IMG/VR virus record: IMGVR_UViG_3300010149_000008
Direction: 5' to 3' (one strand)
Source of the DNA: a virus
Taxonomy: Duplodnaviria; Caudoviricetes
Length of the DNA stretch: 64,000 nucleotides
This document shows positions 1 to 51,669 of this stretch, in pieces. Under the pieces are notes generated by a model. It was given only the letters and a program-made list of their open reading frames with translations. It had not been told where the DNA came from and ran no database searches. How positions within the stretch are numbered: position 1 is the stretch's first letter; every line of letters begins with the position of its first letter. The position numbers and the translations under genes are program-made.

Positions 1-411
1 AAACAAGCTGATGAGCTTACTGAGCTCGAGCGTATTTTTGATGAAAGAAAAGAACATTTTAATCTAGCATCGCCTAGAAGGATCTTTGTTTGTCCACCAG
101 ACGCGCCAAAAGAAGTTCAAAACGAAACTTTTGAAGGTAATTTACATCACATAAAAACAGCAGACTTTTTGCTTGTTAACACAAGAGACAAAGACATTGG
201 AACAATTTGGGAAGCTGGATATGCATATGCATATGACAAGCCAATTATTTATTTTTGCGCAGGATTACCAGAAGGAGCAAAATTTAATTTAATGCTAGCT
301 AGAAGTGGTATTAAAGTTTGCACGTCTTTTGATGAATTAGAAGACTATCTGGATAGAACAATTAAAATACGTTCATTTATAAATGAGCCATACTCAGCTT
401 CAATCGAGTAA
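1..411 (+). CDS. Nucleoside 2-deoxyribosyltransferase-like / nucleotide N-glycosidase (5'-truncated by the window edge)
   Basis: Frame 1 is open from base 1 (KQADELTELERIF...). Contains the family motif D-IGTIWEAGYAYAYDKPII (DxGTxxExGxAxAxxKP). Confidence 0.8.
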   Translation, partial: KQADELTELERIFDERKEHFNLASPRRIFVCPPDAPKEVQNETFEGNLHHIKTADFLLVNTRDKDIGTIWEAGYAYAYDKPIIYFCAGLPEGAKFNLMLARSGIKVCTSFDELEDYLDRTIKIRSFINEPYSASIE

Positions 412-6608: not shown

Positions 6609-9600
6609 TTGTCTATTGATTTAATAACACCACCAAATAGATTTGTATCGCTTCATTCACACTCAACTTTTAGTACTTTTGATGGTCTAGGATATCCAGC
6701 AGATCACATTGATTTTGTTCTTTCTGAATCACAAGGAATGGATGCTTGGGCACTAACAGATCATGGTAATGGTAATGGTCTTGCACATGCTCATTCGCAT
6801 GCTGTTAAAATGCAAAAAGCAGGCAGAAAGTTTAGACAAATATACGGAGTAGAATTCTATTTTGTTCCTTCACTAGATCAGTGGACTAGCGACTATGCAG
6901 ATCACAAGCAATCAATTAAAGATGCAAAAACAGCTGCTGCAGCTGAAAAGAAGAGTAAAGAAAAAATCATTATTGATGCTGATGATGAGAGTGGTGGTCT
7001 TGTCATAGAGGATGAAGATGAATCTAAAAAGATTGATATACTTAAAGATGAGTGGAAGCGACGTTATCACTTAGTAGTTACAGCAAGAAATAGAAAGGGT
7101 CTTAATAATCTATTTACCCTTGTAAAAAAATCATACAAAGACGGCTTTTATAGATACCCGCGCATTGACTTTAAAATGCTTAAAGAGCACGGCGAAGGTT
7201 TACATGTCAATACAGCATGCTTAGGAGGCATATACAGTAATAGAATACTTCGTGGTGTAGCTCATGACAAATCACGTGATGAAATCCAAAAAGACCTGCA
7301 AAACTTATCAGATAGATTTACAGATGCTGTTGGTATTGAAAACTTTAAGTTAGAGCTACAATTTAACAAACTTAATAAGCAACACGTTGTTAATGACTAT
7401 CTTATTGAGCATCATAAGCTAACGGGTATTCCACTTATATCAACAGCAGACTCTCATTACCCGAGCAATGACAAATGGCAAGCAAGAGAGTTATATAAAA
7501 AGCTTGGATGGTTAGGCAAGAAAGATGGTCTAACGCTTCCAGCATTTGAAGATCTTAAGTGTGAGTTGTATCCAAAAAACGCTCAGCAGATGTGGGATGA
7601 GTTTCTTGAAGGTTACAAAGAACACGATTTTTATAAAGGTAACGAGCAGCTAGTTAAAGAGTCAATAGAAAGAACACATGACATTGTCTGGAATGATTTT
7701 GAAGATACTTGGATAGATGTAAGTGCAAAGCTTCCAACAATATCAATTCCTAACAAAACACCTTTTAAACACCTATCAGACTTAGTCAAGAACGCTTTAA
7801 TCAGCGAAGGTTTACATACTAACAAAGAATATGTAGATAGAGCTAAATATGAATTGTCTGATATTAAGTATTTAGGACATGAAGCTTATTTCATTACAAT
7901 GTATGAAATCTTTAAAAAGGCTGAAACGAAGACATTATTTGGTCCTGCTCGAGGAAGTGGTGGAGGTTCTTTGGTTAACTATCTATTAGGCATTACTCAG
8001 CTTGACCCTATTCCTTATAACTTACTTTGGAGCAGATTCTTAGGTAGGCATCGTGTTTCTTGGCCAGACATAGACACAGATGCTGGTGATCGCGATGAAC
8101 TCATCAATGCAGCTAAAGAGCTATACGGTGATGATGCTGTTATTCCAGTATCAAACTTCAACACACTTAAGCTTAAGTCGCTAGTAAAAGATATTGCAAA
8201 GTTTTATGATATTCCATTTGACGAAGTAAATAAGGTAACTGGCCCTCTTCAAGATCAAGTAATGCAAAAAGCAATGGACAAGAATCAAGAAAAGTCTGTG
8301 TTCGTTCTTAAGCATGAAGATTGCATGAAACACTCTCCTGAGTATAATTCGTTTATGACAGAATACCCAGAAGTTGCTGAGCATGTTGAAACTTTATTTA
8401 TGCAGAATAGAGCTATTGGTAGACATGCAGGAGGCGTAATAATAGCAGATGCTGATTCACTAGCTGAATCTATGCCTATTGTTGGTGTTCGTGGTGAACT
8501 ACAAACTCCGTGGACAGAAGGTATGAACTTTAGAAATCTTGAAGATAACGGATTTTTAAAGTTTGACTTTTTAGGTTTAACACTGCTCAAGGACGTAGAA
8601 AACTGTATATATAGAATTCTTAAAAAACAAGGAAATCCTAACCCAACATTCTCAGATGCTCGAGCATTTTTTGATAAGTATTTAAATTGTAGGTTTGTAA
8701 AACAGGATGATAAAAAAGTTTGGGAACATGTATATAAGGACGGTCACTTTTGCGGTGTTTTCCAATTTACAGCTGTAGGTGCAAGAAACTTTGCAAAAGA
8801 GGCAGAGCCTGATTCAATTGAGGAACTAGCAGCATTAACTGCAATTTACCGTCCGGGACCTCTTAAAGCAAATGTACATAAGAAATATGTTAAAGCAAAG
8901 AGAAACGTAGGTGATATAAAATATGAGCATCCTATTATTGAAAAGATACTTGGCCCAACATTTAACTATGTAGTGTTTCAAGAGCAGTTTATGCTTTTAG
9001 CACAAGAGCTAAGCGGATTTGATCCTGGCGAAGCTGACAAGCTTAGAAAGACTTTGGTAAAGAAGTCTTTAGATACTCTACATTCTAAAGGCTCAGAAAA
9101 GGCAATTGCTAGAGATAAGTTTATTAAAGGTGCTAAAGAGCTAAACGATGTTCCAGAATCAGTATCATCTAAGTTATGGGCAGACATAGAAAATTTTGCT
9201 GTTTACGGCTTTAACAAATCCCATGCTATTGCATATGCTATCGGGTCATATTATGCTGCTTGGTTGCATACTCATTATGAGACTGAGTGGCTTGCTGCGA
9301 TATTGCAATCTGAAAATGGTAATCCTAAAGGCATGTCAAAAGCAATTTCAGAGATTAAATCTTTTGGTTACGAGATTGCTGCAATCGATATAAATCACTC
9401 AGGTCTAGAATGGGAATATTCTGATGTGTTGAAAGCCTTTGTGCCGCCTTTGACTTCTCTTAAAGGAGTAGGAGACAAAGCTGTTGAAGAAGTATTTGCA
9501 AATAGACCATACAAAAATTTAAATAATTTATTTTATGATACAGAAGGTGCATGGAAACATTCAAAGCTAAACAAAACAGCTTTTTCATCGCTAGCGAAGA

Positions 9601-10184
9601 TGGAAGCATTTAAGTCTCTTGATGAGTTTAAAGATAATACACTTGATAATCATAAACAACTCCATGATTTGATCCTCGATAATTATGCTATTTTAAAGAA
9701 AGGTTATTGGGGAATGACAAAAACTGCAGTAAAAAGAGCAAAAAAGAACGAAGAAACAATTGTCCCTATTGTAGATCATTTAATTACTAGATATAAAGTT
9801 ATTAGTGACTGGTGCAGATCAGAAAAAATAAAGAATTATTTCAATCTCAGCAATGATGCAAGTGATGACCTCCTATTTCCACCTAAATTAATAAATCGAT
9901 TAAAACAGAAACAAATTAACAGCGTATTTGATATACCACAAGGTGAAAGAGGAATTGGCTGGTTTACAGTTACTGAGGTAATACATAAGACAACAAAGAA
10001 TGGTAAGGCTTTTATGCGCTGGAAGTGCGTTGACTCAGATAATCGTAGTGGCTGGCTACGTGTGTGGGGAAGCATTGAAGAAGGAGTTGAATTTAGTACA
10101 TGGCTTGTAGACGTAAAGAATGATGCTGGTTGGGGTATGTCTACTAATTTAGGCAAGCTTAAAAAGATTAATGCTTTTGATTAA
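6609..10184 (+). CDS. dnaE: DNA polymerase III alpha subunit (family C, DnaE type)
   Basis: PHP domain (HSHSTFS..DG, TDHGN, YGVEFY, TADSHY), GPARGSGGGSL, catalytic PDIDTD, GRHAGG, KFDFLGL, YGFNKSHA, C-terminal OB-like region. TTG start with GAAAGG RBS. Confidence 0.97.
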   Translation: MSIDLITPPNRFVSLHSHSTFSTFDGLGYPADHIDFVLSESQGMDAWALTDHGNGNGLAHAHSHAVKMQKAGRKFRQIYGVEFYFVPSLDQWTSDYADHKQSIKDAKTAAAAEKKSKEKIIIDADDESGGLVIEDEDESKKIDILKDEWKRRYHLVVTARNRKGLNNLFTLVKKSYKDGFYRYPRIDFKMLKEHGEGLHVNTACLGGIYSNRILRGVAHDKSRDEIQKDLQNLSDRFTDAVGIENFKLELQFNKLNKQHVVNDYLIEHHKLTGIPLISTADSHYPSNDKWQARELYKKLGWLGKKDGLTLPAFEDLKCELYPKNAQQMWDEFLEGYKEHDFYKGNEQLVKESIERTHDIVWNDFEDTWIDVSAKLPTISIPNKTPFKHLSDLVKNALISEGLHTNKEYVDRAKYELSDIKYLGHEAYFITMYEIFKKAETKTLFGPARGSGGGSLVNYLLGITQLDPIPYNLLWSRFLGRHRVSWPDIDTDAGDRDELINAAKELYGDDAVIPVSNFNTLKLKSLVKDIAKFYDIPFDEVNKVTGPLQDQVMQKAMDKNQEKSVFVLKHEDCMKHSPEYNSFMTEYPEVAEHVETLFMQNRAIGRHAGGVIIADADSLAESMPIVGVRGELQTPWTEGMNFRNLEDNGFLKFDFLGLTLLKDVENCIYRILKKQGNPNPTFSDARAFFDKYLNCRFVKQDDKKVWEHVYKDGHFCGVFQFTAVGARNFAKEAEPDSIEELAALTAIYRPGPLKANVHKKYVKAKRNVGDIKYEHPIIEKILGPTFNYVVFQEQFMLLAQELSGFDPGEADKLRKTLVKKSLDTLHSKGSEKAIARDKFIKGAKELNDVPESVSSKLWADIENFAVYGFNKSHAIAYAIGSYYAAWLHTHYETEWLAAILQSENGNPKGMSKAISEIKSFGYEIAAIDINHSGLEWEYSDVLKAFVPPLTSLKGVGDKAVEEVFANRPYKNLNNLFYDTEGAWKHSKLNKTAFSSLAKMEAFKSLDEFKDNTLDNHKQLHDLILDNYAILKKGYWGMTKTAVKRAKKNEETIVPIVDHLITRYKVISDWCRSEKIKNYFNLSNDASDDLLFPPKLINRLKQKQINSVFDIPQGERGIGWFTVTEVIHKTTKNGKAFMRWKCVDSDNRSGWLRVWGSIEEGVEFSTWLVDVKNDAGWGMSTNLGKLKKINAFD

Positions 10185-11142: not shown

Positions 11143-11161
11143 AATTTTAAAAAGGATTTAA

Positions 11162-12055
11162 ATGAGATTTTTAAATATTAATATAGAAGGTCCTGATTGT
11201 AGTGGTAAGACTACACTTTTTAATAGAATTCATAAAGAAACAAGCTTTAAGTACAACATACAAGACAGAAGCTGTATGTCAATGTATGTTTATGCAAAAT
11301 TGTATGAAAGAGATAACGCTTCTTTTTGGTTTGATAAAGTTCTTGAAGACATTAAACGATTAGATACATTATATATTGTTCTTTTACCTTCAAACCATAC
11401 TGTGTTAGAAAGACTAAGAAAAAGAGGTGATGAGTTTCAAGATGAAGAAAGCATTATGGATGTCAAACGTTTATTTTACAACTTAGTTAAATGCGGATTT
11501 GGTAACTTTCCAAATGTTTTAGTGCTAGAAGACATTGAAGATTTAACGCAGAAAGTTGATATGTGTTTAAGCTTTATTGAAAGTTTAAATGAATTTCCTA
11601 GTGGCGACTTAATAAAGTCTATTGTTATTAATAGCGGCAGAAACGAATTAGTTGACGTACAATGCAAGGAAGTAGTTGACATTAGCTCTTTAGACTACAC
11701 AGCATTAAATTTTCCTGAAGAAAAATCGTATTATGAAAAAATTACTACAGATATTGAAAATAAGATCTTTAAAGAATTTGCAGGTTTAAATTCACATAAT
11801 ACACCACAAAAACATGACAGTAGAAGATTTGTTTATACTGATGCAAGTTGTATATCGCTTATTCATGCTTTGTTTCGAAAGAACAGACTAAACGTTTCAG
11901 TGACACTTAGATCTTCAAATGTAATTAAAACACTCTGGGCAGATTATGAATTTTTAAAGATAATTAGTGTAAAATTAGCAGAACTTATGCAACTTGACGA
12001 AAGCATACCAGTCGATTTGACTATTAATATAAGGTCTGCACATATTGTACCTTAA
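11162..12055 (+). CDS. dNMP (thymidylate-type) kinase fused to a minimal thymidylate-synthase-like domain
   Basis: N-term P-loop EGPDCSGKTT and DRS; C-term DSRR...SCISLIHALFR.NRL....LRSSN....WAD....SAHI matches the TS fold motifs SRR, PC, RSxD, xHxY. Confidence 0.75.
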   Translation: MRFLNINIEGPDCSGKTTLFNRIHKETSFKYNIQDRSCMSMYVYAKLYERDNASFWFDKVLEDIKRLDTLYIVLLPSNHTVLERLRKRGDEFQDEESIMDVKRLFYNLVKCGFGNFPNVLVLEDIEDLTQKVDMCLSFIESLNEFPSGDLIKSIVINSGRNELVDVQCKEVVDISSLDYTALNFPEEKSYYEKITTDIENKIFKEFAGLNSHNTPQKHDSRRFVYTDASCISLIHALFRKNRLNVSVTLRSSNVIKTLWADYEFLKIISVKLAELMQLDESIPVDLTINIRSAHIVP

Positions 12056-12064
12056 GGAAATTAA

Positions 12065-12634
12065 ATGAATCCGTTTTTTAAAATATATACGGGTCCAATG
12101 TTTGGATCAAAAACAACAAGGCTAGTAGCAGAAATCGATCGTTCTTCTTATAAAGACAGAAAAATTTTTGCTTTTAAAGCAAAGAAAGATAAAAGATACG
12201 ACGCTGAATCTATATCTACACATAGTGGTGTTACATGGCCTGCAATTTGTATCAATGATGCACTAGAAATATTTGACTATTTAAACGATGATTATAATCT
12301 TTCTAATGTGTTAATTGCTGTAGACGAAGCTTTTATGATTAAAGGAATTGATGAAGCTTTAATTTCTTTATTTTTTAAAGGCGCTAATATTGTAGTTTCT
12401 ACAATTCAATTAGATGCAAACGAAAGACCTTTTGAAAATATAAAAAACATGTTGCCTTTTGCAACGCATATTGAAATTTGTCCGGCAGTTTGTACAAAAT
12501 GCAATAACGATGCTTATTATACAGCAGCAATGTTTGACATAGATAACGCAACAGATGAAGAGCGAGTTGGTTCTAAAGACATGTATGAGCCAAGATGCTC
12601 AAAACATTACAAGGCATTTTTTAAATATGAATAG
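12065..12634 (+). CDS. tdk: Thymidine kinase (type II)
   Basis: GPMFGSKTT P-loop, VDEAF, CxxC zinc site (CTKC...A), VGS..MYEPRCSKH. Confidence 0.93.
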   Translation: MNPFFKIYTGPMFGSKTTRLVAEIDRSSYKDRKIFAFKAKKDKRYDAESISTHSGVTWPAICINDALEIFDYLNDDYNLSNVLIAVDEAFMIKGIDEALISLFFKGANIVVSTIQLDANERPFENIKNMLPFATHIEICPAVCTKCNNDAYYTAAMFDIDNATDEERVGSKDMYEPRCSKHYKAFFKYE

Positions 12635-12664: not shown

Positions 12665-13561
12665 ATGTCAATAAAATTTAAATCAGCAGAAATGTACTAT
12701 GGAATACGTGTATACATTTCTGAAAATTCAGACAAAGATTTTTATTTAACAAAATCTTTGATTAACAACTTAAAAAACGTTGAAATAAAATTTAGACAAA
12801 ATAGAATAAATACACCGGTAGCAGACTTATTTAAACATCTTGTTATAATAAAAGGAAGTAAAGAAAGAAGTAGTATTGACAAGATACATAAATCTGGAGC
12901 TGCTAATTGGAGGGCTTTTTTTAATCCAGACACAGAGACTATAGCTTTTGACTTGCAACACTTTAAAAACGAAGAAGCATTAATTAATACTTTAGTTCAT
13001 GAAATAGGTCATGCAATACATGTTAAATTTGTAACGCCAGATGCTAGCAAATACATTTCAGTAGTAGGAAAACAATATGTTAATGTTATAGTTAGTCTCA
13101 AAGACCTTAAAAGTATTGTTGAACAAAACGTACATGACGACGACTTGTGCATGAGACTTATAAAAAAAGCTGAAGATGTATTTTATGATTTTGCAGATTT
13201 ACTAGATAACAGTATTAATTCTTCAGACTACGATGAAAATCATAAAACTTCAAATATTTCTTTCCAAATATGTGAAGAATATGAACTGTATCTTAAGGAA
13301 AAAGGAATTAAAACTTATGTTTCAAAAATTGAAAAAATGATTAGTGTAATAATGAAATTTATACCTTCTGAGTATGGTGCCACAGAAGAGAAAGAGTTTT
13401 TTGCTGAGTGTTTTAGGCAGTTTATTTTAAGCCCAGATGATCTTTCTTTGAACAATAGAAACATGATCATTAATGCATTAACATATTCTAGAGCACAAGG
13501 TAAAGAATTAATGCAGGCACATAAGCTTTTAAAAAACTATGTTAGATATATTATTGATTAA
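12665..13561 (+). CDS. Zincin-like metallopeptidase
   Basis: HEIGH (HExxH) and a distal SEYG....EFFAECF third-ligand motif. Confidence 0.65.
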   Translation: MSIKFKSAEMYYGIRVYISENSDKDFYLTKSLINNLKNVEIKFRQNRINTPVADLFKHLVIIKGSKERSSIDKIHKSGAANWRAFFNPDTETIAFDLQHFKNEEALINTLVHEIGHAIHVKFVTPDASKYISVVGKQYVNVIVSLKDLKSIVEQNVHDDDLCMRLIKKAEDVFYDFADLLDNSINSSDYDENHKTSNISFQICEEYELYLKEKGIKTYVSKIEKMISVIMKFIPSEYGATEEKEFFAECFRQFILSPDDLSLNNRNMIINALTYSRAQGKELMQAHKLLKNYVRYIID

Positions 13562-13985: not shown

Positions 13986-14411
13986 ATGGAAAATATAGCT
14001 CGTCCCTCTTGGGACAAAATATGGATGACAATGGCAGAAACTATTGCACAAAGAAGTCATCATTCTACTTTCAAGGTAGGCGCTATTATAGTAACGTCAG
14101 ATAATACACAAGTGCTTTCTTTGGGGTATAATGGTAATGCTGCAGGATTATCAAACGTACCTCAATCTGAAGAACCTGGCTGTAGTGGTTTATTACATGC
14201 TGAAATTAATGCTTTACTTAAGCTGGATTATAATAACCCAAAAGATAAAGTTATGTATTTGACGTTAAGCCCTTGCACAAACTGCGCGATCGCTGTTATT
14301 AATAGTGGAATAAAAAAAGTAGTCTATAAAACAAAGTATAGAGACGATACAGGCATTAACATGTTAACATCTGCAGGTGTGTTAGTAGAGCAATTTAATT
14401 TAAACAAATAA
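13986..14411 (+). CDS. dCMP deaminase (cytidine/deoxycytidylate deaminase family)
   Basis: RPSWD..WM, KVGA, GYNG, HAEINA, SPCTNCA zinc ligands. Confidence 0.92.
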   Translation: MENIARPSWDKIWMTMAETIAQRSHHSTFKVGAIIVTSDNTQVLSLGYNGNAAGLSNVPQSEEPGCSGLLHAEINALLKLDYNNPKDKVMYLTLSPCTNCAIAVINSGIKKVVYKTKYRDDTGINMLTSAGVLVEQFNLNK

Positions 14412-14483: not shown

Positions 14484-17400
14484 ATGAGTCTAAAACTTAA
14501 AGACGCTTTATTTGAAACTAATGAAAAAAATCTATATAAGATTTTTGAAAAAGCAGATAAAAGAGAACTTGAAGGAAATGTTCAAGCGCTTAATAAGCAA
14601 AAACTACAAGCTGTGGTTAAAGCAATTGCAACTTCTTTAAATAACAAGTTACCGGATACGGAAACTGTAAAGCTAAAAGACGTAATGAAGTCTCCTTTAG
14701 GTGTTTTTGGTTTTAATGACATTAAAGCACTATCAAATGTTCCTATTGCACTAGGTCTAAAAATTGATCCTGTTAACATTAAAGGAGATCAATCACAAGG
14801 CATTGATCCTCTTTCTTTTAAAGCTGCAGATACTTTTGATATTATGCCAATACAGATTGTTAACAAATTTGGTGAGGCAATAGGTGGAAATGTTAAAGGC
14901 AACGAGATGATAGGAATTGCTTATTTTCCTGCAATAATGAAACCTTTAGATAATCCAGAATTTCATGTTAAAAGATTTGGATTGAAGCCTCCAGAAAAAG
15001 GTAATACTTTAATGCATATGAAGGTACCTTTAGATATTCCTGTTGAGCTGGTTACTAAAGAAGAGTTTGAAGAGATTCAAAAAGCTTTTCTTACAGGTAA
15101 AGAAGCAGTTATTAATAGAATTAGTAATTTGCAAAAGTCTAGAATAAGTGGAGGAGTTCCGGAGCAAGCAGGTCAAAGTGATGTTGCTATGTCAAAGAAT
15201 AAGAGAAAAACATCTGCAGACAATAAAGATGCGAGTAGTAACGAAGATAAAGATATAGACAACAAGACAGATTCAATAGAAAAACCAGATAAAATGCCAG
15301 AAGCATTTAACTTTTCTACAGGAAAAAAACTTCATGAACATTCTTTGTCATCATTGCTTTTAGAGAGTCAAGATGAAGATCCAGTTACAGAACCTGCAGC
15401 AAAATTGGACAAAGGTGGTGCGCAAGCGGAAATCGTTCCTCAACGAGTTGAATTTATGCTTAAAGATTTTCCTGGAGTAACTATTGAGCAAATGTTTTCT
15501 GTAGGTTCTGATATTTTTGCAGGAGATGAAAAAATAAGAAAAGCTGGTGTTGCCGGCGTTATTGACGATAATATAGAACAAAAACTAGATTCATATTTTG
15601 ATAGTATGAGTAGCTTTCAATTAGCATGTTTTTATCTGTACCTTGAAGCTATAGGTGAAATGGATGAATTTAATGCTACAGCTAATCAAACGGTATGGAA
15701 AAATTATATAAATAATAATTTTGGTGGTTCTATAGAAAATATGGTAACCGCGTTTAAAAGCAATCCTGAATCTCTTGATTTAAAACAAAATGGTATTACT
15801 AAAGATGAATTAGTAGCTTTATTTGATGATTTAAAACAACCTGAAGTTCAGGTTGCAACTCATATAGATAATTCTGTAAGTGGTGATAGTAAAGGATCGG
15901 CTACAGACCCTTTCAGTGAAGATCTTGATTCATTGTTTGACATAATAGATGTTGATGGTGTTGATGGTTGGTCGAACATGGATCCAGATGAACAAATAGA
16001 TGCAGTGAGCTCAAATCTAAGTGGCAGTCAATTACAACAAGTACTTAATACAGCTGAAGAAAACACTGGTAACGAAATGACGATACAAGCATTAACAAAT
16101 GCTGATGCACCTTTTTGCAATTTAGTTGTTGGAAATGAAAAAGAAAGTGACGAAAAATCTAGTATTCTATTTTTTCAAAGTATACAAATGTCCCCTAAAG
16201 GTAGACGTAAAAAAAATATTGTCTTTATAATCTTATTTAAAGATAATGGTGGCTACGAATTTTTAAGGAAAGATCATAAATTTGATACATACAAAGAAAT
16301 AATAGATAATCTTGCAGACTGCGCACTATATGATATTTCAAAAAACAAAGAACCCGATGTGCTTTCTATTTTATCTAGAATAAAAGAATTAGATGCCACC
16401 GAAGGCAAACAAACGATTACTAAAACGCTTCAAGATGAATTTAATATAGATATTGAACATCTTGAAAGTCAAGATGATGACAAAGGGCAAGAAAAACCAG
16501 ACGAAATTCAACAAGCTAGTTCTAAAGTTCCTAATGCGCCAAGCGAAGAAGAGCAAAAAGCTTACGAAGGATTTCAAGATATTTTTAGTGCTAATCGATA
16601 TGATAATAATTTGTCGACAGCGCAAAATAATATTTCAAAAGTACAAGACACAGAGCAAAAAATTCCAGATAAAATAAAGTCTAAAATCGATCAGATTGAC
16701 AAATTATCTGGAGTCGATCAAAATGATATTAAAAATGTAGGTGCGCTTTTAAATGCAAAGAGCGATTTATGTCGAACTATGTCAACTGTAATGGATGACG
16801 TAGAAGATTGTGCAAAAAATTTATCAAAACTTGTAAAATTTAAACCAAAAATAAGTGAAGAAGGCGAAGAACGAAAATTTGTGCCTAAGTATAGGACTAA
16901 ATCTTTTGTTGCGGGTCTTGATTATGTTAAAAAAGTTGCTAATTTAGTAGAAGAAACTTTTAATGCTATGGGAATTAGTGAATTTCTTTCTCAAGAAAGT
17001 GAATCTCAAAATACTGTTGCTATGCTTAATAACAGTGCTCGTCCAATTGTAAAAAGTATATTAGACTTTAAATATAAAGATAATAAAAGATCATATTCTC
17101 AATTTAGTCAATGGAGCAAAACTTATAAAATAAGTACTCGAGTAAATGATCAGTGGGAAAAAAAGACTGGCGATGATGTTAAAAATTCTATTCAATATTT
17201 AATTGAAGAGTTAGTAAAAGCATTTAAAAAAGGCTCAGCACAAATAGAAAAAGAGCTTAATAATGCTATTGAAGATTTTAGTAAAGAAAACGCTGAAGCT
17301 TTAAGTAAAGTTGAACAAGGTGCCTTTAATTGGCGTGAAGGTTTAAAATATGATATTGATAAAATATACAAGCCTTTTAGTAAAATAAGTGGTATTGATA

Positions 17401-20400
17401 TAACATACGAGACGTTTGAATCTTATTTCGACTCATTTGTTGAGCAGGCACAAGAAAGAGTAGAAACTTCAAAAAAAGAGTTTGACCCAAGCATTTTAGA
17501 AAAGCCTTTAGTATTAGACTTAGATGCTGTAATTGGTGAATTAGAAAAAGTTAATATTAAAGACGAATCTATTAATGACTTGGCAATTATATTGGCTAGA
17601 AACTTTATTGAGATAGATGATAAAAAACGTCAGCAATTAACTGCTGTTGAAGCACAAAGATATTTTGTAGAATCTTTTTATGAAGCATTAGATATTCAAG
17701 GAAAGAGCGGAAGATTTTTAGAAAATGCTAACAAAAAAGGTGAGCCTTTAAATGAAATTGTAGGAGTCGCAGCTGGTGCAGTAGCAAGTGCAGCTTTGTT
17801 TTGTGGCGTTACTCTAGGCACTTCTATTGTAATTATTGCTCTTGCAGGTTATGGAATAGGTCAGATTACTGGTTTTGATGACTGGATTAAACGAAAATTA
17901 TCAAAAAAAGTGCTTAAAAAGCAAGACGTTGTTGAAGCTATAATGGATAATGACGAAATGGTAGCAGCATATAAAAAGCTAATAAAAGTTAGTTTGTTAA
18001 AAGCTGCGCAAGAATACTTTATATCTCTTGAAAGTAGTTTAGAAGAAAAATTTAATATTAAGCTAAAATATAGTAATCAAAAAGAATATAGGGCAGTAAA
18101 GACTAGACAGCAAGAAGAGAAAAAGTCTGCTAAAGCTATTGAAAACATGTCTGACTTTGGTAAAGAGCTTATGACAAAAATAGAAGATGTTGGACATGAT
18201 GTTCTTCCTTCTATGCCGGGATCACAACACTTTTCTGATGTCACAGTGACACGTGTTAATAGTGCGCTTAGAGAAAGCAAGCATATTAACATGATAATTA
18301 ATCATTTAAGTGATGGCAATACTGCAGGTCAAGAAAATGCTGGGTTTGTGTATCAAAAAGGCTTGGGTCAGCTTATTCTTAAAGAATCAGAAGAAAATTC
18401 TGTGTCAAGCAAAAAAGAGCAAATAAACATTCCAGTAAATAAAATGTTTGGAGAGCTCAAGAGACTTATTGGTCAGTCTATTTCTAAAACAAATTACAAT
18501 GAAAAAATCCTCAGAGACTTAGAAAAAGACTTTATAAAGTACGGTAATGAAAATTCTTCAAAAATAAGCATAACAAAAGCAGAGAACAAAACAATCCCAG
18601 TTAGTTTTGTAGTACAAAAAATATCTGCTTACACTGGTATACCTCAAGCTAAAATTAAAAAGCAGCTTTTTGAAAGCAAAAATAGAAATTCAAACTTAAT
18701 AAATTACAATAATAAAAAGAACATTGAAAACTTAATAAACGAAAACATTCTAAGTGGTTCTCTTGCTAATCTTTTACTTGAAGAAAGTTCAGTTGTATCA
18801 CATGTAAGCTCTGCAGGTCAATATTCAAGAGATGGTCGATTCTATTTTGAGAACTTGCAAAGCAAGGGCAGCGATGGAGTGGAGAAATATGATTACTATG
18901 TTACTGACTTTGCTAAAAGTATTAAAAGGCCTACAATAAAATTTGATCTTAATGATGTTGGTATTGTACCGTCAAAGGGCAGTCAGTTTACCATTAGTTC
19001 TGAAGATGGGGCTGATCCTACACCTTTTGTTAGATTTAGTGTTGAACACAATGGTGTTAAAAAAGTTTTAAGATTTAGAGCAGATGGAATTGCTAGTGAT
19101 TTTGACAAGGATGTAAAAATATTCTTGAAATTGAAAAATATGGATGCTGCGGAAAGGATGAGATACTCTGATCAAATTAGTAAAATATCTAATCGACTTG
19201 GTAATCTAAAAGGAAAAATTGATCCTAATGGTAAGATTACAATAACATCAGACGGTGAGAATGTAGGTATAATAAAGAATGTTAAAGAATTTAAAACGCC
19301 TCCAATTAGTAGAACTAATAAATTAACTGAAGATAGATTTAATGATATGATTGAAAGTACGTCAGCTAAGGGTGAAATTTATCTATCTGCTTCAGAAAAT
19401 TTACAAGCGAAACATGATCAATTTCTACTACATAAATTAGGTGGTGAACGTAGTGATTACGTAGTAAAAAAAGGTTTAGCTATTCCTAAAGAACACATGC
19501 TAGAAGGAGAAATACAGTGGGGAGATTCAGACGTTATTGAAGGTGTAAAAGCTTTTAAAACTAATGGGGAATTTGTTGAAATAAAAATTGCTGCTGGATC
19601 AACTAGCGGTGAAATTGTTACAATTTCACCTGATGGTGTAGAGCTAGCTTCTAGATCACGAGTTATAGAGCTTAGAGACAAACTTGTCGGAAATCCAGTA
19701 AAGTTTAAAACTACAGGTGATACAATTTCAGATAATGGTTTAGTTTCTTCAAAACTAGAAATGTCTGCGAAGGCAAAGGAAACTCTAGGTAGTGCTGGTA
19801 CTGAGGTTGGTGAACAGGCTGGTGCTGAGGCTGGTGCTGAGGCTGGTGCTGAGGCTGGTGCTGAGGCTGGTTCAGAGGCTGGTTCAGAGGCTGGTTCAGA
19901 GGCTGGTTCAGAGGCTGGAGAGCAAGCAGCTGGTGAACAAGCTGGAGAGCAAGTAGATACAGAAATTAAGGACGTCAAGTCTAATGATTCTAATATAGAC
20001 ATTTTTAAAGATGATAAAGTAGATTCAATTGATCAAGATGCTTTAGATGAAATATATAAAGATCATATGAGAACAGACTCAGGCGGTAATATTAGACTAG
20101 ACGCTCAACATTTAGATGATGATTTTGAAAAGTTAGGTTATAAAGTAGATACTTCTAATAGTGTTGGTGAAATAAAACTATATAGGATTGACTCAGATGG
20201 CAATGCATCTTCGGAAGTAATAGAAACTTTTGAAAACAGTCCGGATGGTGTTAAAGATCTTTGTCAAAAAATAAACGATTTGAAAGGTCAAAGTAATATT
20301 TCTTTAGAAGTTAAAGAAATTAATATGGAAACTAAAACTTTAACAAAAATCGATCCAGAGTCTGAAGGTTTTTTTGCAGGTGCTAAGAAATTCTATAACG

Positions 20401-35558: not shown

Positions 35559-37217
35559 ATGTCTGATTTAATTTATTTTAATGCTGAAGCACAATACATG
35601 CTAAAAGAGGGTGTAAGAAAACTTTGTGCAGCTGTTAGCTCAACAATGGGGCCTCGAGGGAGATTAGTCCTTATTGAAAAAAATAATGAGCCTCCTCATC
35701 TTACAAAAGATGGCGCAACTGTTGCAAAAAACATTATACTTTCTGACAGGGTAGAGTCTTTAGGCGCAAGGCTTTTAAGACAAGCTTCAGAAAATACTGC
35801 TACAGTAGCAGGTGACGGAAGTACAACTGCGACAGTTTTGGCTAAAGAAATATACTTTAGATCTTCACAGGCATTGCAAACAGGAGTAGGATCGCCATCA
35901 GAGATTACTAGTCTTTTATCGAAAAAGTCTGAAGTAATTAAAGAATTTTTAAAAGAAAAGTCTAAAACTGTTTCTTCTAATGAAGAGATAAAGCAAGTTG
36001 CAACTATTAGCGCAAATGGCGATGATTATATTGGTGGTCTTATTTCTAACGCAATGGAAGAAGTAGGTACAAGTGGTTTAGTCACAGTTGAAAAAAGTAA
36101 AACAACAAGTACAGAGCTTAAGCTAGTTAGAGGAGTAAAGATAGATCGAGGATATATTTCTCCTTATTTTGTGACAGATACAGTAAAGTCCAGATGTATT
36201 TTAGAAGATCCTCTTGTTTTGATTACTAGCGCAAAATTGACTTCTTTGACACAAATATTACCAATATTAGAAAAAGCGCATCAAACAAAAAAGCCTTTGT
36301 TTATTATTGCAAATGATTATGATCAAGAAGCAATTCAAGCTTTAATAGCAAACGTTTCTAAGGGCTTGCTTCAAATATGTGCTGTTAGGTCACCTTTCTA
36401 TGGAGAAAAAAGAAATCAAGTTCTTAATGATCTTGCAGCAGCATTAGATACAAAAGTTTATTTTGATTTAGAAGAAAACGAAGTAAACAATATTCTACTT
36501 TCAGACTTAGGAAATTGCAAAAAGATTGAAACTAGTCATAATGAAACATTGTTTGTTGAATGTGCAGGATCAGCTGACAAGTCTAAAGAAAGCATTGAAA
36601 CTCTTGAGAGTATAGAAAATCTTCTTAAAGATAAGAATATTTCCAAAGAAGAAGAAGCTTATTTAAAACAAAGACTTGTTATTAACAAAGGAGTTGTAGC
36701 AGTACTTTCTATTGGAGCACACACTGAGTCTGAATTATTGGAGCTAGTTGACAGAATTGACGATGCACTTCATGCTACTAAAGCTGCAATGGAAAGTGGA
36801 TTTCTTCCGGGAGGTGGCATTGCCTTAGCAAAAGCTGGTCTAAAGCTATTAAGAGACTCAGAAGCTTTAGATGCAGAAAACAGTTTATTAGAAAGCACTG
36901 TAATAAAAATTCTTGCTGACGCATGTATTACACCACTTAGACAAATATTAAAAAACGCAGACTTATCTGTTGACTATATAATAGAGATGATTAAAAAAGT
37001 TCCTGACTTTAATCACGGATTTGATGTAAGAACTGAGACTTACATTGATATGATTGACAAAGGTATTATTGATCCACAGAAAGTAACAGCAACAGCACTA
37101 GAAAACGCAGTAAGCGTTGCAAACTCATTAATGAGTGTAGGTTGTGTTGTTTTAAATGAAGGTAATGCTTACGGTAATGACGTGCAACTAGTTCAGTTAT
37201 CTAATGATATGTATTAA
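35559..37217 (+). CDS. groEL: Chaperonin GroEL (Cpn60)
   Basis: STMGPRG, TKDGATVA, AGDGSTTAT, TISANGD, IDDALHATKAA...GGG, IIDP.KV. Confidence 0.96.
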   Translation: MSDLIYFNAEAQYMLKEGVRKLCAAVSSTMGPRGRLVLIEKNNEPPHLTKDGATVAKNIILSDRVESLGARLLRQASENTATVAGDGSTTATVLAKEIYFRSSQALQTGVGSPSEITSLLSKKSEVIKEFLKEKSKTVSSNEEIKQVATISANGDDYIGGLISNAMEEVGTSGLVTVEKSKTTSTELKLVRGVKIDRGYISPYFVTDTVKSRCILEDPLVLITSAKLTSLTQILPILEKAHQTKKPLFIIANDYDQEAIQALIANVSKGLLQICAVRSPFYGEKRNQVLNDLAAALDTKVYFDLEENEVNNILLSDLGNCKKIETSHNETLFVECAGSADKSKESIETLESIENLLKDKNISKEEEAYLKQRLVINKGVVAVLSIGAHTESELLELVDRIDDALHATKAAMESGFLPGGGIALAKAGLKLLRDSEALDAENSLLESTVIKILADACITPLRQILKNADLSVDYIIEMIKKVPDFNHGFDVRTETYIDMIDKGIIDPQKVTATALENAVSVANSLMSVGCVVLNEGNAYGNDVQLVQLSNDMY

Positions 37218-50598: not shown

Positions 50599-51669
50599 AT
50601 GAAAATATTAAATAACAAGGCAATAAGTTTTGATGATATTGTTTTAATACCACAACATTCTGACATAAATTCTAGAAGCGAAATTAATACTACCGTAAAA
50701 ATAGCTCATGAAAACAATACTGAGACATCTTTTAAGATACCTATAATTAGCAGTCCAATGTCAACAGTTACAGAAGCACACATGTGTAACGCAATTAGAA
50801 GTCAAGGAGGCTTAGGGATTATTCACAGATACAATACGATTGAATATCAGACTAGACTTTTAAGTTTTGTAAGCGACAATGAAACAAAGGCAGCTGCAAT
50901 TGGAGTTTCTGGTGACTTTAAAGAAAGACTTTCATCTCTAGTGGAAAAAGGATTAAAGATTGTATGTATTGATATTGCTCATGGTGATCACAAATTAATG
51001 GAAAACGCTATCGAATTTGTAAGATCAGAGTATAATGATTTATTTGTGATTGCTGGAAATGTTGCAACTGGTTCAGGATACAAAAGATTAGCTTATGCAG
51101 GAGCTCATGGAATACGAACTTCTGTAGGCAGCGGAAGCATATGTACTACAAGAATTCAAACGGGACATGGCATGCCAACTCTGAGTGCAATTATTGAAAT
51201 TTCCAAAGCAAAAAAAGAGTTAATAACAGAGCTAAATTATACTTCAAAAAGCTTGCCTTTTGTAATAGCTGATGGTGGCATTAAGAATAGCGGTGACATA
51301 GTAAAGTCTCTTGCAGCAGGAGCTGACTTTGTAATGTTAGGATCAATGTTAAGCGGGACAAAAGAAACGCCTGGAAAGATTATTTTAAATAGTGAAGGAA
51401 ATAAAATAAAAAGATACAATGGAATGGCTTCAAAGTTAGCTCAAAAAAACTGGAAAGGATCTTACTCTTCTATAGAAGGTGTAAGCTCTTATGTAAATTA
51501 CAAAGGAACTGTTTCGAAAGTAATAAACGAAATAATGTCAAACGTAAGAAGTGGCATGTCTTATACAGGAGCTAGATCACTAAAAGAGTTAAGAGAAGAA
51601 GCTATTGCTATTATTCAAACTAATTCTTCACATTCAGAAGGTAACCCACATATTTTTAATAGAAGGTAA
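50599..51669 (+). CDS. IMPDH/GMP reductase family enzyme (no CBS domains)
   Basis: FDDIVLIPQ, SSPMSTVT, GLGIIHR, DIAHG, AGNVAT, GSGSICTTR, IADGG, VMLGSMLSGTKETPG, YNGMAS. Confidence 0.93.
   Translation: MKILNNKAISFDDIVLIPQHSDINSRSEINTTVKIAHENNTETSFKIPIISSPMSTVTEAHMCNAIRSQGGLGIIHRYNTIEYQTRLLSFVSDNETKAAAIGVSGDFKERLSSLVEKGLKIVCIDIAHGDHKLMENAIEFVRSEYNDLFVIAGNVATGSGYKRLAYAGAHGIRTSVGSGSICTTRIQTGHGMPTLSAIIEISKAKKELITELNYTSKSLPFVIADGGIKNSGDIVKSLAAGADFVMLGSMLSGTKETPGKIILNSEGNKIKRYNGMASKLAQKNWKGSYSSIEGVSSYVNYKGTVSKVINEIMSNVRSGMSYTGARSLKELREEAIAIIQTNSSHSEGNPHIFNRR

What the first reader, a model, noticed from the sequence alone, without database searches (positions are those of the whole stretch)
11162..12055. 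dNMP kinase fused to a stripped-down TS-like domain with the dCMP-type Asp: candidate DNA pyrimidine-modification enzyme
Seen: the C-terminal ~120 aa keep the TS-fold landmarks (DSRR, catalytic Cys in ASC, LRSSN for RSxD, SAHI for xHxY) but lack most of the N-terminal folate-binding region. The substrate-specificity position after RSxx is Asp (TLWAD). Established: this position is Asn in dTMP synthases (E. coli N177) and Asp in dCMP hydroxymethylases (T4 gp42 D179); phage hmC and hydroxy-C pathways pair such enzymes with a dedicated dNMP kinase. Inference: it makes and phosphorylates a modified dCMP, possibly folate-independent, for incorporation by the adjacent DnaE.
Basis: partly seen in the sequence, partly recalled or inferred. 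Interest (0 to 1): 0.7.

Follow-up and report, generated by a model that had tools for sequence, protein, structure and literature searches.

The report
Nucleotide kinase fused to mini thymidylate-synthase
A marine jumbo phage gene fuses a thymidylate-kinase-like enzyme to a half-size thymidylate-synthase-fold domain that keeps the cytosine-type catalytic residues, so it probably makes and phosphorylates an altered dCMP for phage DNA; this widespread family has never been described.

Summary
ORF 11162-12055 (+) encodes 297 aa. Residues 1-145 are a P-loop kinase of the thymidylate-kinase/YorR type. Residues 146-297 are a real but drastically reduced thymidylate synthase (TS) / dCMP hydroxymethylase fold.

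Evidence for the fold:
- AlphaFold2 model, pLDDT 90.7.
- Best solved matches are the flavin-dependent phage dCMP hydroxylase AfhB (Z 9.8), T4 dCMP hydroxymethylase and ThyA.
- Family profile against PDB: E 4e-4. hhalign against RB69 gp48: 94% probability.

Across 125 representatives at 50% identity, the catalytic Cys230, Glu187, Arg221/222, Arg250-Ser251, His294 and the cytosine-selecting Asp261 are 83-98% conserved. The cofactor lid (about 60 aa), about 11-16 aa before the Cys and the whole C-terminal tail are missing.

This protein also has Asn253, the D169N change reported in 2026 as diagnostic of 5-hydroxy-dCMP synthases. That position varies (N/D/E) within the family, so the chemistry stays open. 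In the characterised 5-hydroxycytosine clusters the same kinase type lies two or three genes from the synthase gene; here the two are fused.

The family occurs only in uncultured viruses, is called "thymidylate kinase" or "hypothetical", and recurs next to a long ThyX-like gene in DnaE, PolB and PolA phages.

The scan had already noted this same stretch in an overlapping window of the same genome, not on other DNA.

The parts
11152..11156 (+). Shine-Dalgarno-like AAGGA, 5 nt before the ATG
11162..12055 (+). Complete ORF, 297 aa plus TAA: kinase::mini-TS fusion (P0001)
   Evidence: 292 homologues of 295-297 aa with the same N-terminus. The database's own gene call for this genome (P0055, 217 aa) starts at Val81 and is probably too short.
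11162..11596 (+). N-terminal P-loop dNMP kinase domain (aa 1-145), thymidylate-kinase/YorR type
   Evidence: phrog_761 at 5.4e-15. PF01712, PF02223 and TIGR00041 hit below their cut-offs. YorR 2axp/3kb2 is the best PDB match by sequence and fold.
11189..11212 (+). Walker A motif GPDCSGKT (aa 10-17)
   Evidence: G15 and K16 conserved in fused members
11264..11272 (+). DRS (aa 35-37), the TMPK-type DR motif
11411..11431 (+). LID-like RLRKRGD (aa 84-90)
   Evidence: R84, R88, G89 and D90 conserved
11597..12052 (+). C-terminal mini thymidylate-synthase/dCMP-hydroxymethylase-fold domain (aa 146-297)
11720..11722 (+). Glu187, in E-x-x-Y-Y; inferred equivalent of ThyA Glu58 / T4 dCH Glu60
   Evidence: 119/125 conserved. 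The motif compares with RELEWY of the gp42-like protein in L010. The residue mapping is an inference.
11822..11827 (+). Arg221-Arg222, equivalent to ThyA R126'/R127' (phosphate binding across the dimer)
   Evidence: 122/125 and 104/125 conserved; aligned to NSRR of RB69 gp48 and AfhB
11849..11851 (+). Cys230, the catalytic nucleophile position (ThyA C146, T4 dCH C148)
   Evidence: 121/125 conserved; aligned
11909..11920 (+). Arg250-Ser251-Ser252-Asn253 (ThyA R166-S167-x-D169). Asn253 is the D169N state.
   Evidence: R 122 and S 123 of 125. Position 253 is N 58, D 50, E 7, H 5. The D169N signature is described in PMC13326640.
11942..11944 (+). Asp261, the specificity position (ThyA N177, T4 dCH D179)
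   Evidence: 123/125 conserved; aligned
12041..12043 (+). His294 in SAHI (ThyA H207). The protein ends 3 residues later.
   Evidence: 120/125 conserved; aligned to SAHV of RB69 gp48/AfhB and SLHVY of dCH
12065..12634 (+). Thymidine kinase gene, 9 nt downstream with its own AAGGA; probably co-transcribed
   Evidence: PF00265 at 1.2e-29; TK lies within 10 kb downstream in 66/80 related loci
13986..14411 (+). dCMP deaminase gene
   Evidence: PF00383 at 2.6e-23; present in 64/80 related loci
6609..10184 (+). DnaE-type DNA polymerase III alpha gene, upstream
   Evidence: Pfam hits; DnaE lies upstream of the fusion gene (within the 10 kb flank) in 80/80 IMG/VR loci
1..411 (+). 3' part of the nucleoside 2-deoxyribosyltransferase-like gene. 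The long ThyX-like gene lies just before the window.
   Evidence: L002 is identical to the window over 10,642 bases.

Best explanation
The gene encodes a bifunctional enzyme of a phage pre-replicative cytosine-nucleotide pathway.

The C-terminal mini-TS domain binds dCMP, or a 5-substituted dCMP. It uses the conserved phosphate-binding residues (Arg250, Ser251, and Arg221/Arg222 from the partner subunit) and reads the cytosine N3/N4 edge with Asp261. Cys230 then adds to C6, with Glu187 and His294 assisting, so that C5 can react.

The folate/flavin lid and the C-terminal tail are absent. The reacting group must therefore come from one of three sources:
- a loosely bound flavin, as in the AfhB / RB69 gp48 5-hydroxy-dCMP synthases, whose Asn (D169N) and SAH motifs this protein shares;
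- the co-occurring long ThyX-like flavoprotein;
- no cofactor at all, for example substitution on an already 5-substituted dCMP.

The fused thymidylate-kinase-like domain then phosphorylates the product to the diphosphate, as T4 gp1 does for hm-dCMP. Host NDP kinase and the adjacent DnaE polymerase complete incorporation.

Shown: the fold, the residue conservation, the fusion and the genomic associations. Inferred: the substrate, catalysis, the product and incorporation into DNA.
For: Fold and homology:
- Confident full-length model, pLDDT 90.7, pTM 0.84.
- Foldseek top hits are 9iqu/9iqc (AfhB dCMP hydroxylase) at 4e-5, then T4 dCH and ThyA.
- VIA-align on the domain model gives AfhB Z 9.8 with 138 aa aligned at 20% identity. 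All 50 listed rows are TS-family.
- Family profile against PDB: T4 dCH 4.2e-4, AfhB 1e-3.
- hhalign: 94% against RB69 gp48 and 92% against a gp42-like dCH.

Catalytic residues are under selection. Over 125 representatives down to about 25% identity, Cys230 is kept in 121, Asp261 in 123, Arg250 in 122, Ser251 in 123, Arg221 in 122, His294 in 120 and Glu187 in 119. All 80 IMG/VR loci keep E, C, D and H, apart from one truncated match.

Kinase motifs are intact.

Rosetta-stone logic: in the DLP3, RB69 and RL38J1 5hoC clusters, a YorR/TMPK-like 'nucleotide kinase' gene sits two or three genes from the 5hodCMP synthase gene (for RB69p045 and p048). YorR is also the best PDB match of this N-terminal domain.

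This protein carries N177D, D169N and L143D equivalents.

The context mirrors the T4 set: RNR, an all-alpha NTP pyrophosphatase-nucleotidase fusion, ThyX, TK and dCMP deaminase.

The fusion or mini-TS gene sits next to a long ThyX-like gene in three polymerase backgrounds: DnaE, PolB with overlapping genes and PolA. It does so in one further contig as well.
Against: - No activity, product or DNA-modification data exist.
- The domain lacks every element that holds folate or flavin in solved TS-family enzymes. It has about 62 aa fewer than RB69 gp48 before the SRR strand and about 16 aa fewer before the Cys. It ends 3 aa after His294.
- Position 253 varies N/D/E among orthologues in the same synteny, and its state does not go with the sugar epimerase gene: N 7/28, D 24/42, E 9/9. 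The 5hoC signature is therefore not decisive.
- Some phages carry a full-size cytosine-type TS homologue as well as a mini-TS, so the mini-TS may not be the primary C5-modifying enzyme.
- Four of 125 representatives have lost the Cys and an Arg.
- The ThyX-like gene is within 10 kb in only 36/80 DnaE-lineage loci.
- The kinase could simply be the phage's dTMP kinase, since the next gene is thymidine kinase.
Confidence: 0.55

Rival explanations
1. The protein is an ordinary phage thymidylate (dNMP) kinase. Its TS-derived C-terminal domain no longer catalyses anything. It serves instead as a nucleotide-binding module for allosteric control, substrate capture or dimerisation.
For: - The sources that name it call it thymidylate kinase.
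- It is followed 9 nt later by thymidine kinase, and the phage has ThyX and dCMP deaminase, so a dTMP kinase step is needed.
- The cofactor-binding parts of the TS fold are deleted.
- Four of 125 representatives lost the Cys and Arg yet keep the domain.
Against: - A binding-only domain would not need the nucleophile Cys (121/125), the Glu58-type Glu (119/125) and His294 (120/125) conserved down to about 25% identity.
- Stand-alone mini-TS proteins of 150-200 aa, with no kinase attached, keep the same residues.
Confidence: 0.2
2. The mini-TS domain is one subunit of a two-protein enzyme with the long ThyX-like flavoprotein. The mini-TS holds dCMP and activates it through Cys230. The ThyX-like protein supplies the flavin-borne (or flavin/folate-borne) group that the missing lid would otherwise position.
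For: - The ThyX-like gene lies next to the fusion gene in PolB and PolA phages and in one further contig, and in the same DnaE-lineage block; it is within 10 kb in 36/80 loci.
- The two genes overlap by 16 nt in L007.
- The ThyX-like family keeps the RHR motif but has an invariant Cys where ThyX has its second Ser.
Against: - In this genome the two genes are about 11 kb apart.
- 44/80 loci show no ThyX-like gene within 10 kb.
- Some stand-alone mini-TS contexts show none either.
- There is no physical evidence of an interaction.
Confidence: 0.15
3. It is a thymidylate-pathway fusion (TS plus TMPK) that converts dUMP to dTMP and then dTDP. It would be a reduced version of the full-length TMPK::TS fusions found in other phages.
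For: An ESM Atlas cluster of 437-aa viral proteins combines PF00303 (100% of members) with PF02223 (39%). The neighbours are thymidylate-supply genes.
Against: - Asp, not Asn, occupies the N177 position in 123/125 representatives. Asp selects dCMP in T4 dCH and in N177D ThyA (PMC13326640).
- The hydride-donating folate site needed for methylation is absent.
- The phage already has a canonical ThyX.
Confidence: 0.05

Closest known systems
Flavin-dependent 5-hydroxy-dCMP synthases: HY126 AfhB (PDB 9iqu, 9iqc), RB69 gp48, DLP3 gp80
   Same: - Best structural match (Z 9.8, 20% identity).
- Same states at the key positions: Cys, R-S-x-Asn (D169N), Asp at N177, an acidic residue three positions before the Cys, and the SAH[VI] motif.
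- Partnered with a YorR/TMPK-like nucleotide kinase.
   Different: - The domain is 152 aa against 217-238 aa. It lacks about 62 aa before the SRR strand, about 16 aa before the Cys, and the residues after SAH.
- The kinase is fused rather than a separate gene.
- Position 253 is not fixed as Asn in the family.
- No flavin or activity data exist.
- No DNA glycosyltransferase has been identified nearby.
T4 gp42 dCMP hydroxymethylase with gp1 dNMP kinase and gp56 dCTPase
   Same: - Best sequence-profile match in PDB (E 4.2e-4).
- Shares Cys148, Arg168-Ser169, Asp179 and His216 equivalents, and the I-R-D-type Arg239.
- The pathway logic also matches: pyrophosphatase, then a C5-modifying TS homologue, then a dedicated kinase, alongside cd, td-like and tk genes.
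   Different: - Asp171 is Asn here.
- The tetrahydrofolate-binding parts are missing.
- The kinase belongs to the TMPK/YorR class, not the gp1 family.
- A T4-like contig carries both a gp42-like gene and a stand-alone mini-TS, so the two are not simple equivalents.
Thymidylate synthase ThyA (PF00303)
   Same: Same fold. The model's residues 3-152 align to E. coli ThyA 1-210 at Z 8.4. The catalytic Cys, Arg126/127, Arg166, Ser167 and His207 equivalents are present.
   Different: - Asp replaces Asn177 and Asn replaces Asp169.
- There is no Trp80/Trp83 lid and no C-terminal 54 residues.
- The Pfam model does not detect the family: 0 hits for this protein and 3/116 at E<0.01.
Full-length TMPK::TS fusion proteins of phages (ESM Atlas cluster, 437 aa)
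   Same: Same domain order and partner classes: a thymidylate-kinase-like domain plus a TS-fold domain, found only in viruses.
   Different: Those proteins carry a complete PF00303 domain and are recognised by Pfam. The state of their specificity residues was not examined here.
MilA/MilB of mildiomycin biosynthesis (TS-like CMP hydroxymethylase plus an NDT-fold N-glycosidase)
   Same: A cytosine-specific TS-fold enzyme is genomically paired with a PF05014 nucleoside-deoxyribosyltransferase-fold protein (paper listed).
   Different: MilA is full-size, folate-dependent and ribonucleotide-specific, and its pathway releases a free base. Here a kinase fusion and the polymerase context point to nucleotide supply for DNA.

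Membership tests
Thymidylate synthase / dCMP hydroxymethylase superfamily | TS alpha/beta fold | tested here: met
   Foldseek E 4e-5 to 1e-3 for AfhB, T4 dCH and ThyA. VIA-align Z 8-9.8 over 135-139 residues, and every listed row is TS-family. Atlas rows 6-8.
Thymidylate synthase / dCMP hydroxymethylase superfamily | Significant sequence-profile similarity | tested here: met
   Family profile against PDB: T4 dCH 4.2e-4, AfhB 1e-3. hhalign probabilities 94% and 92%. PHROG 160 at 7.7e-4.
Thymidylate synthase / dCMP hydroxymethylase superfamily | Reaches the Pfam PF00303 curated threshold | tested here: not met
   No PF00303 hit for P0001. Only 3/116 family members reach E<0.01.
Thymidylate synthase / dCMP hydroxymethylase superfamily | Catalytic Cys and phosphate-binding Arg/Ser set (C146, R126', R127', R166, S167; R21) | tested here: met
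   Cys230, Arg221, Arg222, Arg250 and Ser251 are aligned and 83-98% conserved. The Arg21 equivalent is uncertain (Arg160 here, variable in the family).
Thymidylate synthase / dCMP hydroxymethylase superfamily | Cofactor-binding lid (Trp80/Trp83 region) and C-terminal tail closing over the cofactor | tested here: not met
   152 residues span what takes 210 in ThyA and 211 in AfhB. There are gaps of about 62 and 16 aa relative to RB69 gp48. The protein ends 3 aa after His294.
Thymidylate synthase / dCMP hydroxymethylase superfamily | Obligate homodimer with shared active sites | not tested
Conservation of Arg221/222 is consistent with a dimer.
5-hydroxy-dCMP synthase (AfhB / RB69 gp48 type) | Asp at the ThyA N177 position | tested here: met
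   Asp261, 123/125.
5-hydroxy-dCMP synthase (AfhB / RB69 gp48 type) | Asn at the ThyA D169 position (diagnostic per PMC13326640) | tested here: met
   Asn253 in this protein. Family-wide it is N 58, D 50, E 7, H 5 of 125, and N 29, D 42, E 9 of the 81 aligned sequences (80 loci plus P0001). It is therefore not a family trait.
5-hydroxy-dCMP synthase (AfhB / RB69 gp48 type) | Binds a flavin and hydroxylates dCMP with O2 | not testable with these tools
   Needs purified protein. The region that would cover the cofactor is absent.
5-hydroxy-dCMP synthase (AfhB / RB69 gp48 type) | Accompanied by DNA glycosyltransferases and NDP-sugar synthesis genes | tested here: inconclusive
   An NDP-sugar epimerase lies at 1414-2403. 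No glycosyltransferase appears among the Pfam families listed for 37 window ORFs, but only 25 of 34 families were shown. Epimerase presence does not track Asn253.
T4 gp42-type dCMP hydroxymethylase | Asp179, Glu60, Cys148 and Asp171, with a tetrahydrofolate site | tested here: not met
   The Asp, Cys and (by motif) Glu are present. The Asp171 equivalent is Asn253, and the folate-binding segments are missing.
Thymidylate kinase / dNMP kinase (PF02223, TIGR00041) | Walker A, DR motif and LID arginines | tested here: met
   GPDCSGKT, D35-R36, and R84/R88-G-D, all conserved in fused members.
Thymidylate kinase / dNMP kinase (PF02223, TIGR00041) | Reaches the curated family thresholds | tested here: not met
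   PF02223 scores 21.5 against a cut-off of 27. PF01712 scores 22.7 against 27. TIGR00041 scores 23.7 against 83.25. PHROG 761 'thymidylate kinase' hits at 5.4e-15.

The most novel reading that the evidence does not exclude
A minimal TS-fold enzyme of about 150 aa has shed its folate/flavin lid. It performs covalent Cys-C6 catalysis on dCMP either with a cofactor presented in trans by the long ThyX-like flavoprotein, or with no cofactor on a 5-substituted dCMP. The product would be a cytosine derivative not yet described in DNA, which the fused kinase channels toward DnaE in abundant uncultured marine phages.
Probability: 0.3. Interest if true: 0.85.

Novelty: new variant of a known kind. Interest (0 to 1): 0.66.

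Why it matters
TS-fold enzymes are the entry point to every known pre-replicative C5 pyrimidine modification of phage DNA: hmC, hmU, 5mC and, since 2025-26, 5-hydroxy-C. This family shows that about 150 residues of that fold, without the cofactor-binding half, are kept under strong selection together with all catalytic residues.

The family is large. It has 169 representatives at 50% identity, 292 clusters at 90% identity in one length band, and at least 88 IMG/VR viral contigs. It occurs in phages with three different replicative polymerases.

Current annotation misses it completely: Pfam finds no TS domain, and sources call it thymidylate kinase or hypothetical.

If it is active, it marks an unexplored cytosine-modification route in marine phages. 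That would matter for restriction evasion, for sequencing bias in viromes, and for new nucleotide chemistry. It would also give a minimal scaffold for studying what a TS fold can do without folate.

Tried and rejected
- **Complex prediction.** The ThyX-like protein (A8) was folded with the full-length fusion (A9). The result was no verdict, with run scores of 0.45, 0.00 and 0.00. It counts neither for nor against binding.
- **Cultured phages.** tblastn of P0001, P0267, P0250 and P0166 against 50,697 phage records gave no match. P0245 gave only a 49-aa P-loop match in an unannotated faecal phage contig.
- **Bacterial and archaeal genomes.** A scan of species-representative genomes with A5 found no relatives. 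No whole genome is held for this window.
- **Failed locus searches.** The search for related loci with A3, A4 and A7 had no stretch conserved enough to search with. P0250 gave nothing. Contexts outside the DnaE lineage therefore rest on a few encoding-contig look-ups.
- **Longer fused forms.** A search for forms of 574-2000 aa found none. This is weak evidence.
- **Third homologue search.** The search with A3 only recovered the close family again.
- **Read-level signs of base modification.** All runs that hold the stretch are kept only as assembled contigs. The stretch is held nearly complete in five 2017 marine metagenome runs, three of which may be the source.
- **Asn253 against sugar genes.** I tested whether Asn253 goes with the NDP-sugar epimerase, as a 5hoC-glycosylation pathway would predict. 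It does not.
- **AfhB paper.** The He et al. paper on AfhB is not in the library, so the flavin contacts could not be mapped.
- **Wrong ORFs.** An NCBIfam call aimed at the purine genes hit the wrong ORFs and only identified a DNA ligase at 60468-61778.
- **Single-sequence hhalign.** With the close-family alignment A2, hhalign against RB69 gp48 gave only 3.7% probability. The diverse alignment A3 was needed.
Full report
**The gene**

Window 11162-12055 (+) is a single ORF of 297 codons. It has an ATG start, AAGGA 5 nt upstream and a TAA stop. It lies 75 nt from a divergent 271-aa ORF of unknown function. Nine nucleotides downstream is a thymidine kinase gene with its own AAGGA.

The window has about 30% G+C, no tRNA genes and phage-type genes, including GroEL, an HNH endonuclease and DnaE. 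A 256-kb metagenome contig is identical to the window over 10,642 bases. The source is therefore an uncultured marine jumbo phage. No whole genome is held for it.

**Checking the observation**

N-terminal half:
- It matches PHROG 761 'thymidylate kinase' at 5.4e-15.
- It matches PF01712, PF02223 and TIGR00041 below their cut-offs.
- Its best PDB match by sequence and by fold is the SPbeta kinase-like protein YorR.
- Walker A (GPDCSGKT), the D35-R36 motif and the R84/R88-G-D LID are conserved in the fused family.

C-terminal half:
- It has no Pfam hit.
- It matches PHROG 160 'thymidylate synthase' at 7.7e-4.
- It weakly matches T4 dCMP hydroxymethylase in PDB. That alignment places Cys230 on C148, RSSN on RSND and Asp261 on D179.

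**Fold**

An AlphaFold2 model built on 52 homologues is confident, with pLDDT 90.7 and pTM 0.84. It shows two domains with the boundary near residue 145.

Foldseek on the whole model ranks the flavin-dependent phage dCMP hydroxylase AfhB first (9iqu and 9iqc, E 4e-5 and 1e-4). T4 dCH, YorR and many ThyA structures follow.

The domain modelled alone has pLDDT 82.7. VIA-align gives:
- AfhB: Z 9.8, 138 aligned residues, 20% identity.
- E. coli ThyA (1f4c): Z 8.4, with model residues 3-152 covering chain residues 1-210.
- All 50 listed entries are TS-family.

The viral and Atlas structure libraries and a language-model search agree.

**Sequence statistics and residue conservation**

An exhaustive profile search of 1.84 billion cluster representatives found 169 relatives at E<=1e-3. 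Of the 150 best-scoring relatives that were listed:
- 78 are at least 270 aa long, and 66 of these have a canonical P-loop.
- Others are gene fragments or genuine stand-alone proteins of about 150-200 aa.

A profile of 116 of these domains hits T4 dCH at 4.2e-4, AfhB at 1e-3 and E. coli ThyA at 0.13-0.19 in PDB, always in the same register. hhalign gives 94% probability against RB69 gp48 and 92% against a T4 gp42-like protein. Pfam's PF00303 model sees only 3 of 116.

Conservation over 125 representatives:

| Residue | Conserved | Equivalent |
|---|---|---|
| Cys230 | 121 | ThyA C146 |
| Asp261 | 123 | ThyA N177 position |
| Arg250 | 122 | ThyA R166 |
| Ser251 | 123 | ThyA S167 |
| Arg221 | 122 | ThyA R126' |
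| Arg222 | 104 | ThyA R127' |
| His294 | 120 | ThyA H207 |
| Arg239 | 117 | the I-R-D Arg of dCH and gp48 |
| Glu187 | 119 | ThyA E58 / T4 E60 (inferred) |

I equate Glu187 with ThyA Glu58 from its E-x-x-aromatic-aromatic motif. The comparison is with RELEWY in the gp42-like protein printed.

**What is missing**

Relative to RB69 gp48, the domain lacks about 62 residues between the Glu helix and the SRR strand. This is the region that carries Trp80/Trp83 in ThyA. It also lacks about 16 residues before the Cys. It ends three residues after His294, whereas ThyA continues for 57 more. The nucleotide site and catalytic residues are therefore intact, while the walls that enclose folate or flavin are gone.

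**Link to recent work**

Lee et al. (NAR 2026, PMC13326640) showed that RB69 gp48 and DLP3 gp80 make 5-hydroxy-dCMP with a loosely bound flavin. These are TS homologues with N177D and L143E. The paper also reports that Asn at the D169 position is diagnostic of such enzymes.

This protein has Asp261, Asn253, Asp227 and an SAHI motif like gp48's SAHV.

Table 1 of that paper lists a 'nucleotide kinase' whose best matches are YorR and thymidylate kinases. Its gene lies two or three genes from the synthase gene in DLP3, RB69 and RL38J1 (RB69p045 and p048). The present protein is thus a fusion of the two gene types that are neighbours in the characterised clusters.

However, position 253 is N 58, D 50, E 7 and H 5 across the family. 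It also varies among orthologues with the same neighbours, and Asn does not go with the NDP-sugar epimerase. I therefore do not assign the product.

**Genomic context**

In this genome the upstream 20 kb carries, in order:
- RNR, thioredoxin and a canonical ThyX;
- a dUTPase_2/NT5C fusion;
- a long ThyX-like gene (328 aa);
- an NDT-fold gene and an NDP-sugar epimerase;
- DnaE, then the fusion gene, TK and dCMP deaminase.

Relatives at about 30-35% identity keep this order. In 80 IMG/VR loci, the following lie within 10 kb of the fusion gene:

| Gene | Loci (of 80) |
|---|---|
| DnaE (upstream) | 80 |
| TK | 66 |
| dCMP deaminase | 64 |
| NDT-fold gene | 42 |
| ThyX-like gene | 36 |

All 80 loci belong to one broad lineage, so the synteny may partly be inheritance. 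The contexts outside that lineage are more telling:
- **PolB phage.** The order is NDT, HD nucleotidase, ThyX-like, fusion, with the last two genes overlapping.
- **PolA phage.** The order is dUTPase_2, a 226-aa PF00303 protein with RSAN and PND motifs, ThyX-like, two unknown genes, a mini-TS fusion, dCMP deaminase.
- **A further contig.** The order is dUTPase_2-like, ThyX-like, a SAM methyltransferase, fusion.
- **T4-like contig.** A gp42-like dCH lies two genes from a stand-alone mini-TS.

The mini-TS therefore belongs to a recurring nucleotide-modification module. In some phages it coexists with a full-size cytosine-type TS homologue. This argues that it is not always the primary modifying enzyme.

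**Interpretation**

The most economical reading is a bifunctional enzyme that modifies dCMP, or a 5-substituted dCMP, through Cys230 and then phosphorylates the product. This parallels T4 gp42 plus gp1 and the 5hoC clusters. I give it 0.55.

Within that reading I cannot choose between three options:
- an AfhB-like loosely bound flavin;
- a cofactor delivered by the ThyX-like protein;
- cofactor-free chemistry on a pre-modified dCMP.

Rivals:
- A plain phage dTMP kinase with a non-catalytic TS relic (0.2). The conserved nucleophile and the stand-alone forms argue against it.
- A heteromeric enzyme with the ThyX-like protein (0.15). The complex prediction gave no verdict, which counts neither way.
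- A dUMP-to-dTDP fusion (0.05). Asp261 and the missing folate site argue against it.

**Novelty**

- No paper in the library describes a truncated TS fold fused to a kinase.
- No cultured phage record and no species-representative bacterial genome carries a detectable homologue.
- Sources call the protein thymidylate kinase or hypothetical.
- Full-length TMPK::TS fusions do exist in phages.

The architecture is therefore a new variant of a known kind rather than a new kind. Earlier notes of this scan on the same genome had flagged the ThyX-like module and mentioned a stripped-down ThyA-like partner. I re-derived that association independently for four contexts.

Noticed in passing
window 50599-51669, plus other ORFs in the window not located: The window encodes an IMPDH/GMP-reductase-family protein (PF00478, 1.5e-94), an adenylosuccinate synthetase (PF00709, 7e-94) and a Lyase_1 protein (8.8e-31). 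This is a purine-interconversion set, or conceivably PurZ-like, in a 30% G+C phage. In relatives (L004, L005) the IMPDH-like gene lies 1-2 kb downstream of the fusion gene, and it is within 10 kb in 25/80 loci.
   Followed up: partly
L091:4805-5485: A PolA-phage contig carries a 226-aa PF00303 protein with RSAN and L-P-N-D motifs, which are the D169N plus N177D signature of 5-hydroxy-dCMP synthases. It lies directly before a 342-aa ThyX-like gene and three genes before a mini-TS fusion (P0245).
   Followed up: partly
L002:7483-8469 (same genome, just upstream of the window): The long ThyX-like family (34 sequences, A8) keeps the RHR motif. It has an invariant Cys124 where ThyX has its second Ser, and G-D-R where ThyX has R-Y. 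Other invariant residues are H111, H115, D127 and R128.
   Followed up: partly
window 11402-12055 (P0055): The protein database's own gene call for this genome starts at Val81 (217 aa). It cuts off the P-loop, although 292 homologues support the 297-aa ORF. This is probably a start-codon mis-call.
   Followed up: yes
Family representatives P0125, P0135, P0227, P0240; group A4 (P0250 and others): Four of 125 representatives have lost the catalytic Cys and an Arg of the mini-TS domain. A PolB-phage subgroup has G-K-D instead of G-K-S/T in the Walker A motif. Both look like degenerate or re-purposed versions.
   Followed up: no
window 12665-13561: A 298-aa ORF between TK and dCMP deaminase has an HEIGHAIH zincin-like motif and only weak metallopeptidase hits (SprT-like, MPTase-PolyVal, E about 0.02). 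It is not conserved next to the fusion gene (1/80 loci).
   Followed up: partly
window 14484-22718: A 2744-aa ORF contains a run of (A/S)GxE repeats and has no family assignment so far.
   Followed up: no
window 35559-37217: A phage-encoded GroEL chaperonin (phrog_5725, 4.5e-137).
   Followed up: no
L010:4216-4770 and L010:3046-3789: A T4-like contig (gp13 homologue, NUMOD3) has a gp42-like dCMP hydroxymethylase and, two genes later, a stand-alone 184-aa mini-TS. A HAD+PRK fusion follows. The mini-TS is therefore not merely a substitute for gp42.
   Followed up: partly
ESM Atlas cluster (row 8): A viral cluster of 437-aa proteins combines a complete thymidylate synthase domain (PF00303 in 100% of members) with a thymidylate kinase domain (PF02223 in 39%). 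It is a full-size counterpart of the fusion studied here. Its specificity residues were not examined.
   Followed up: no
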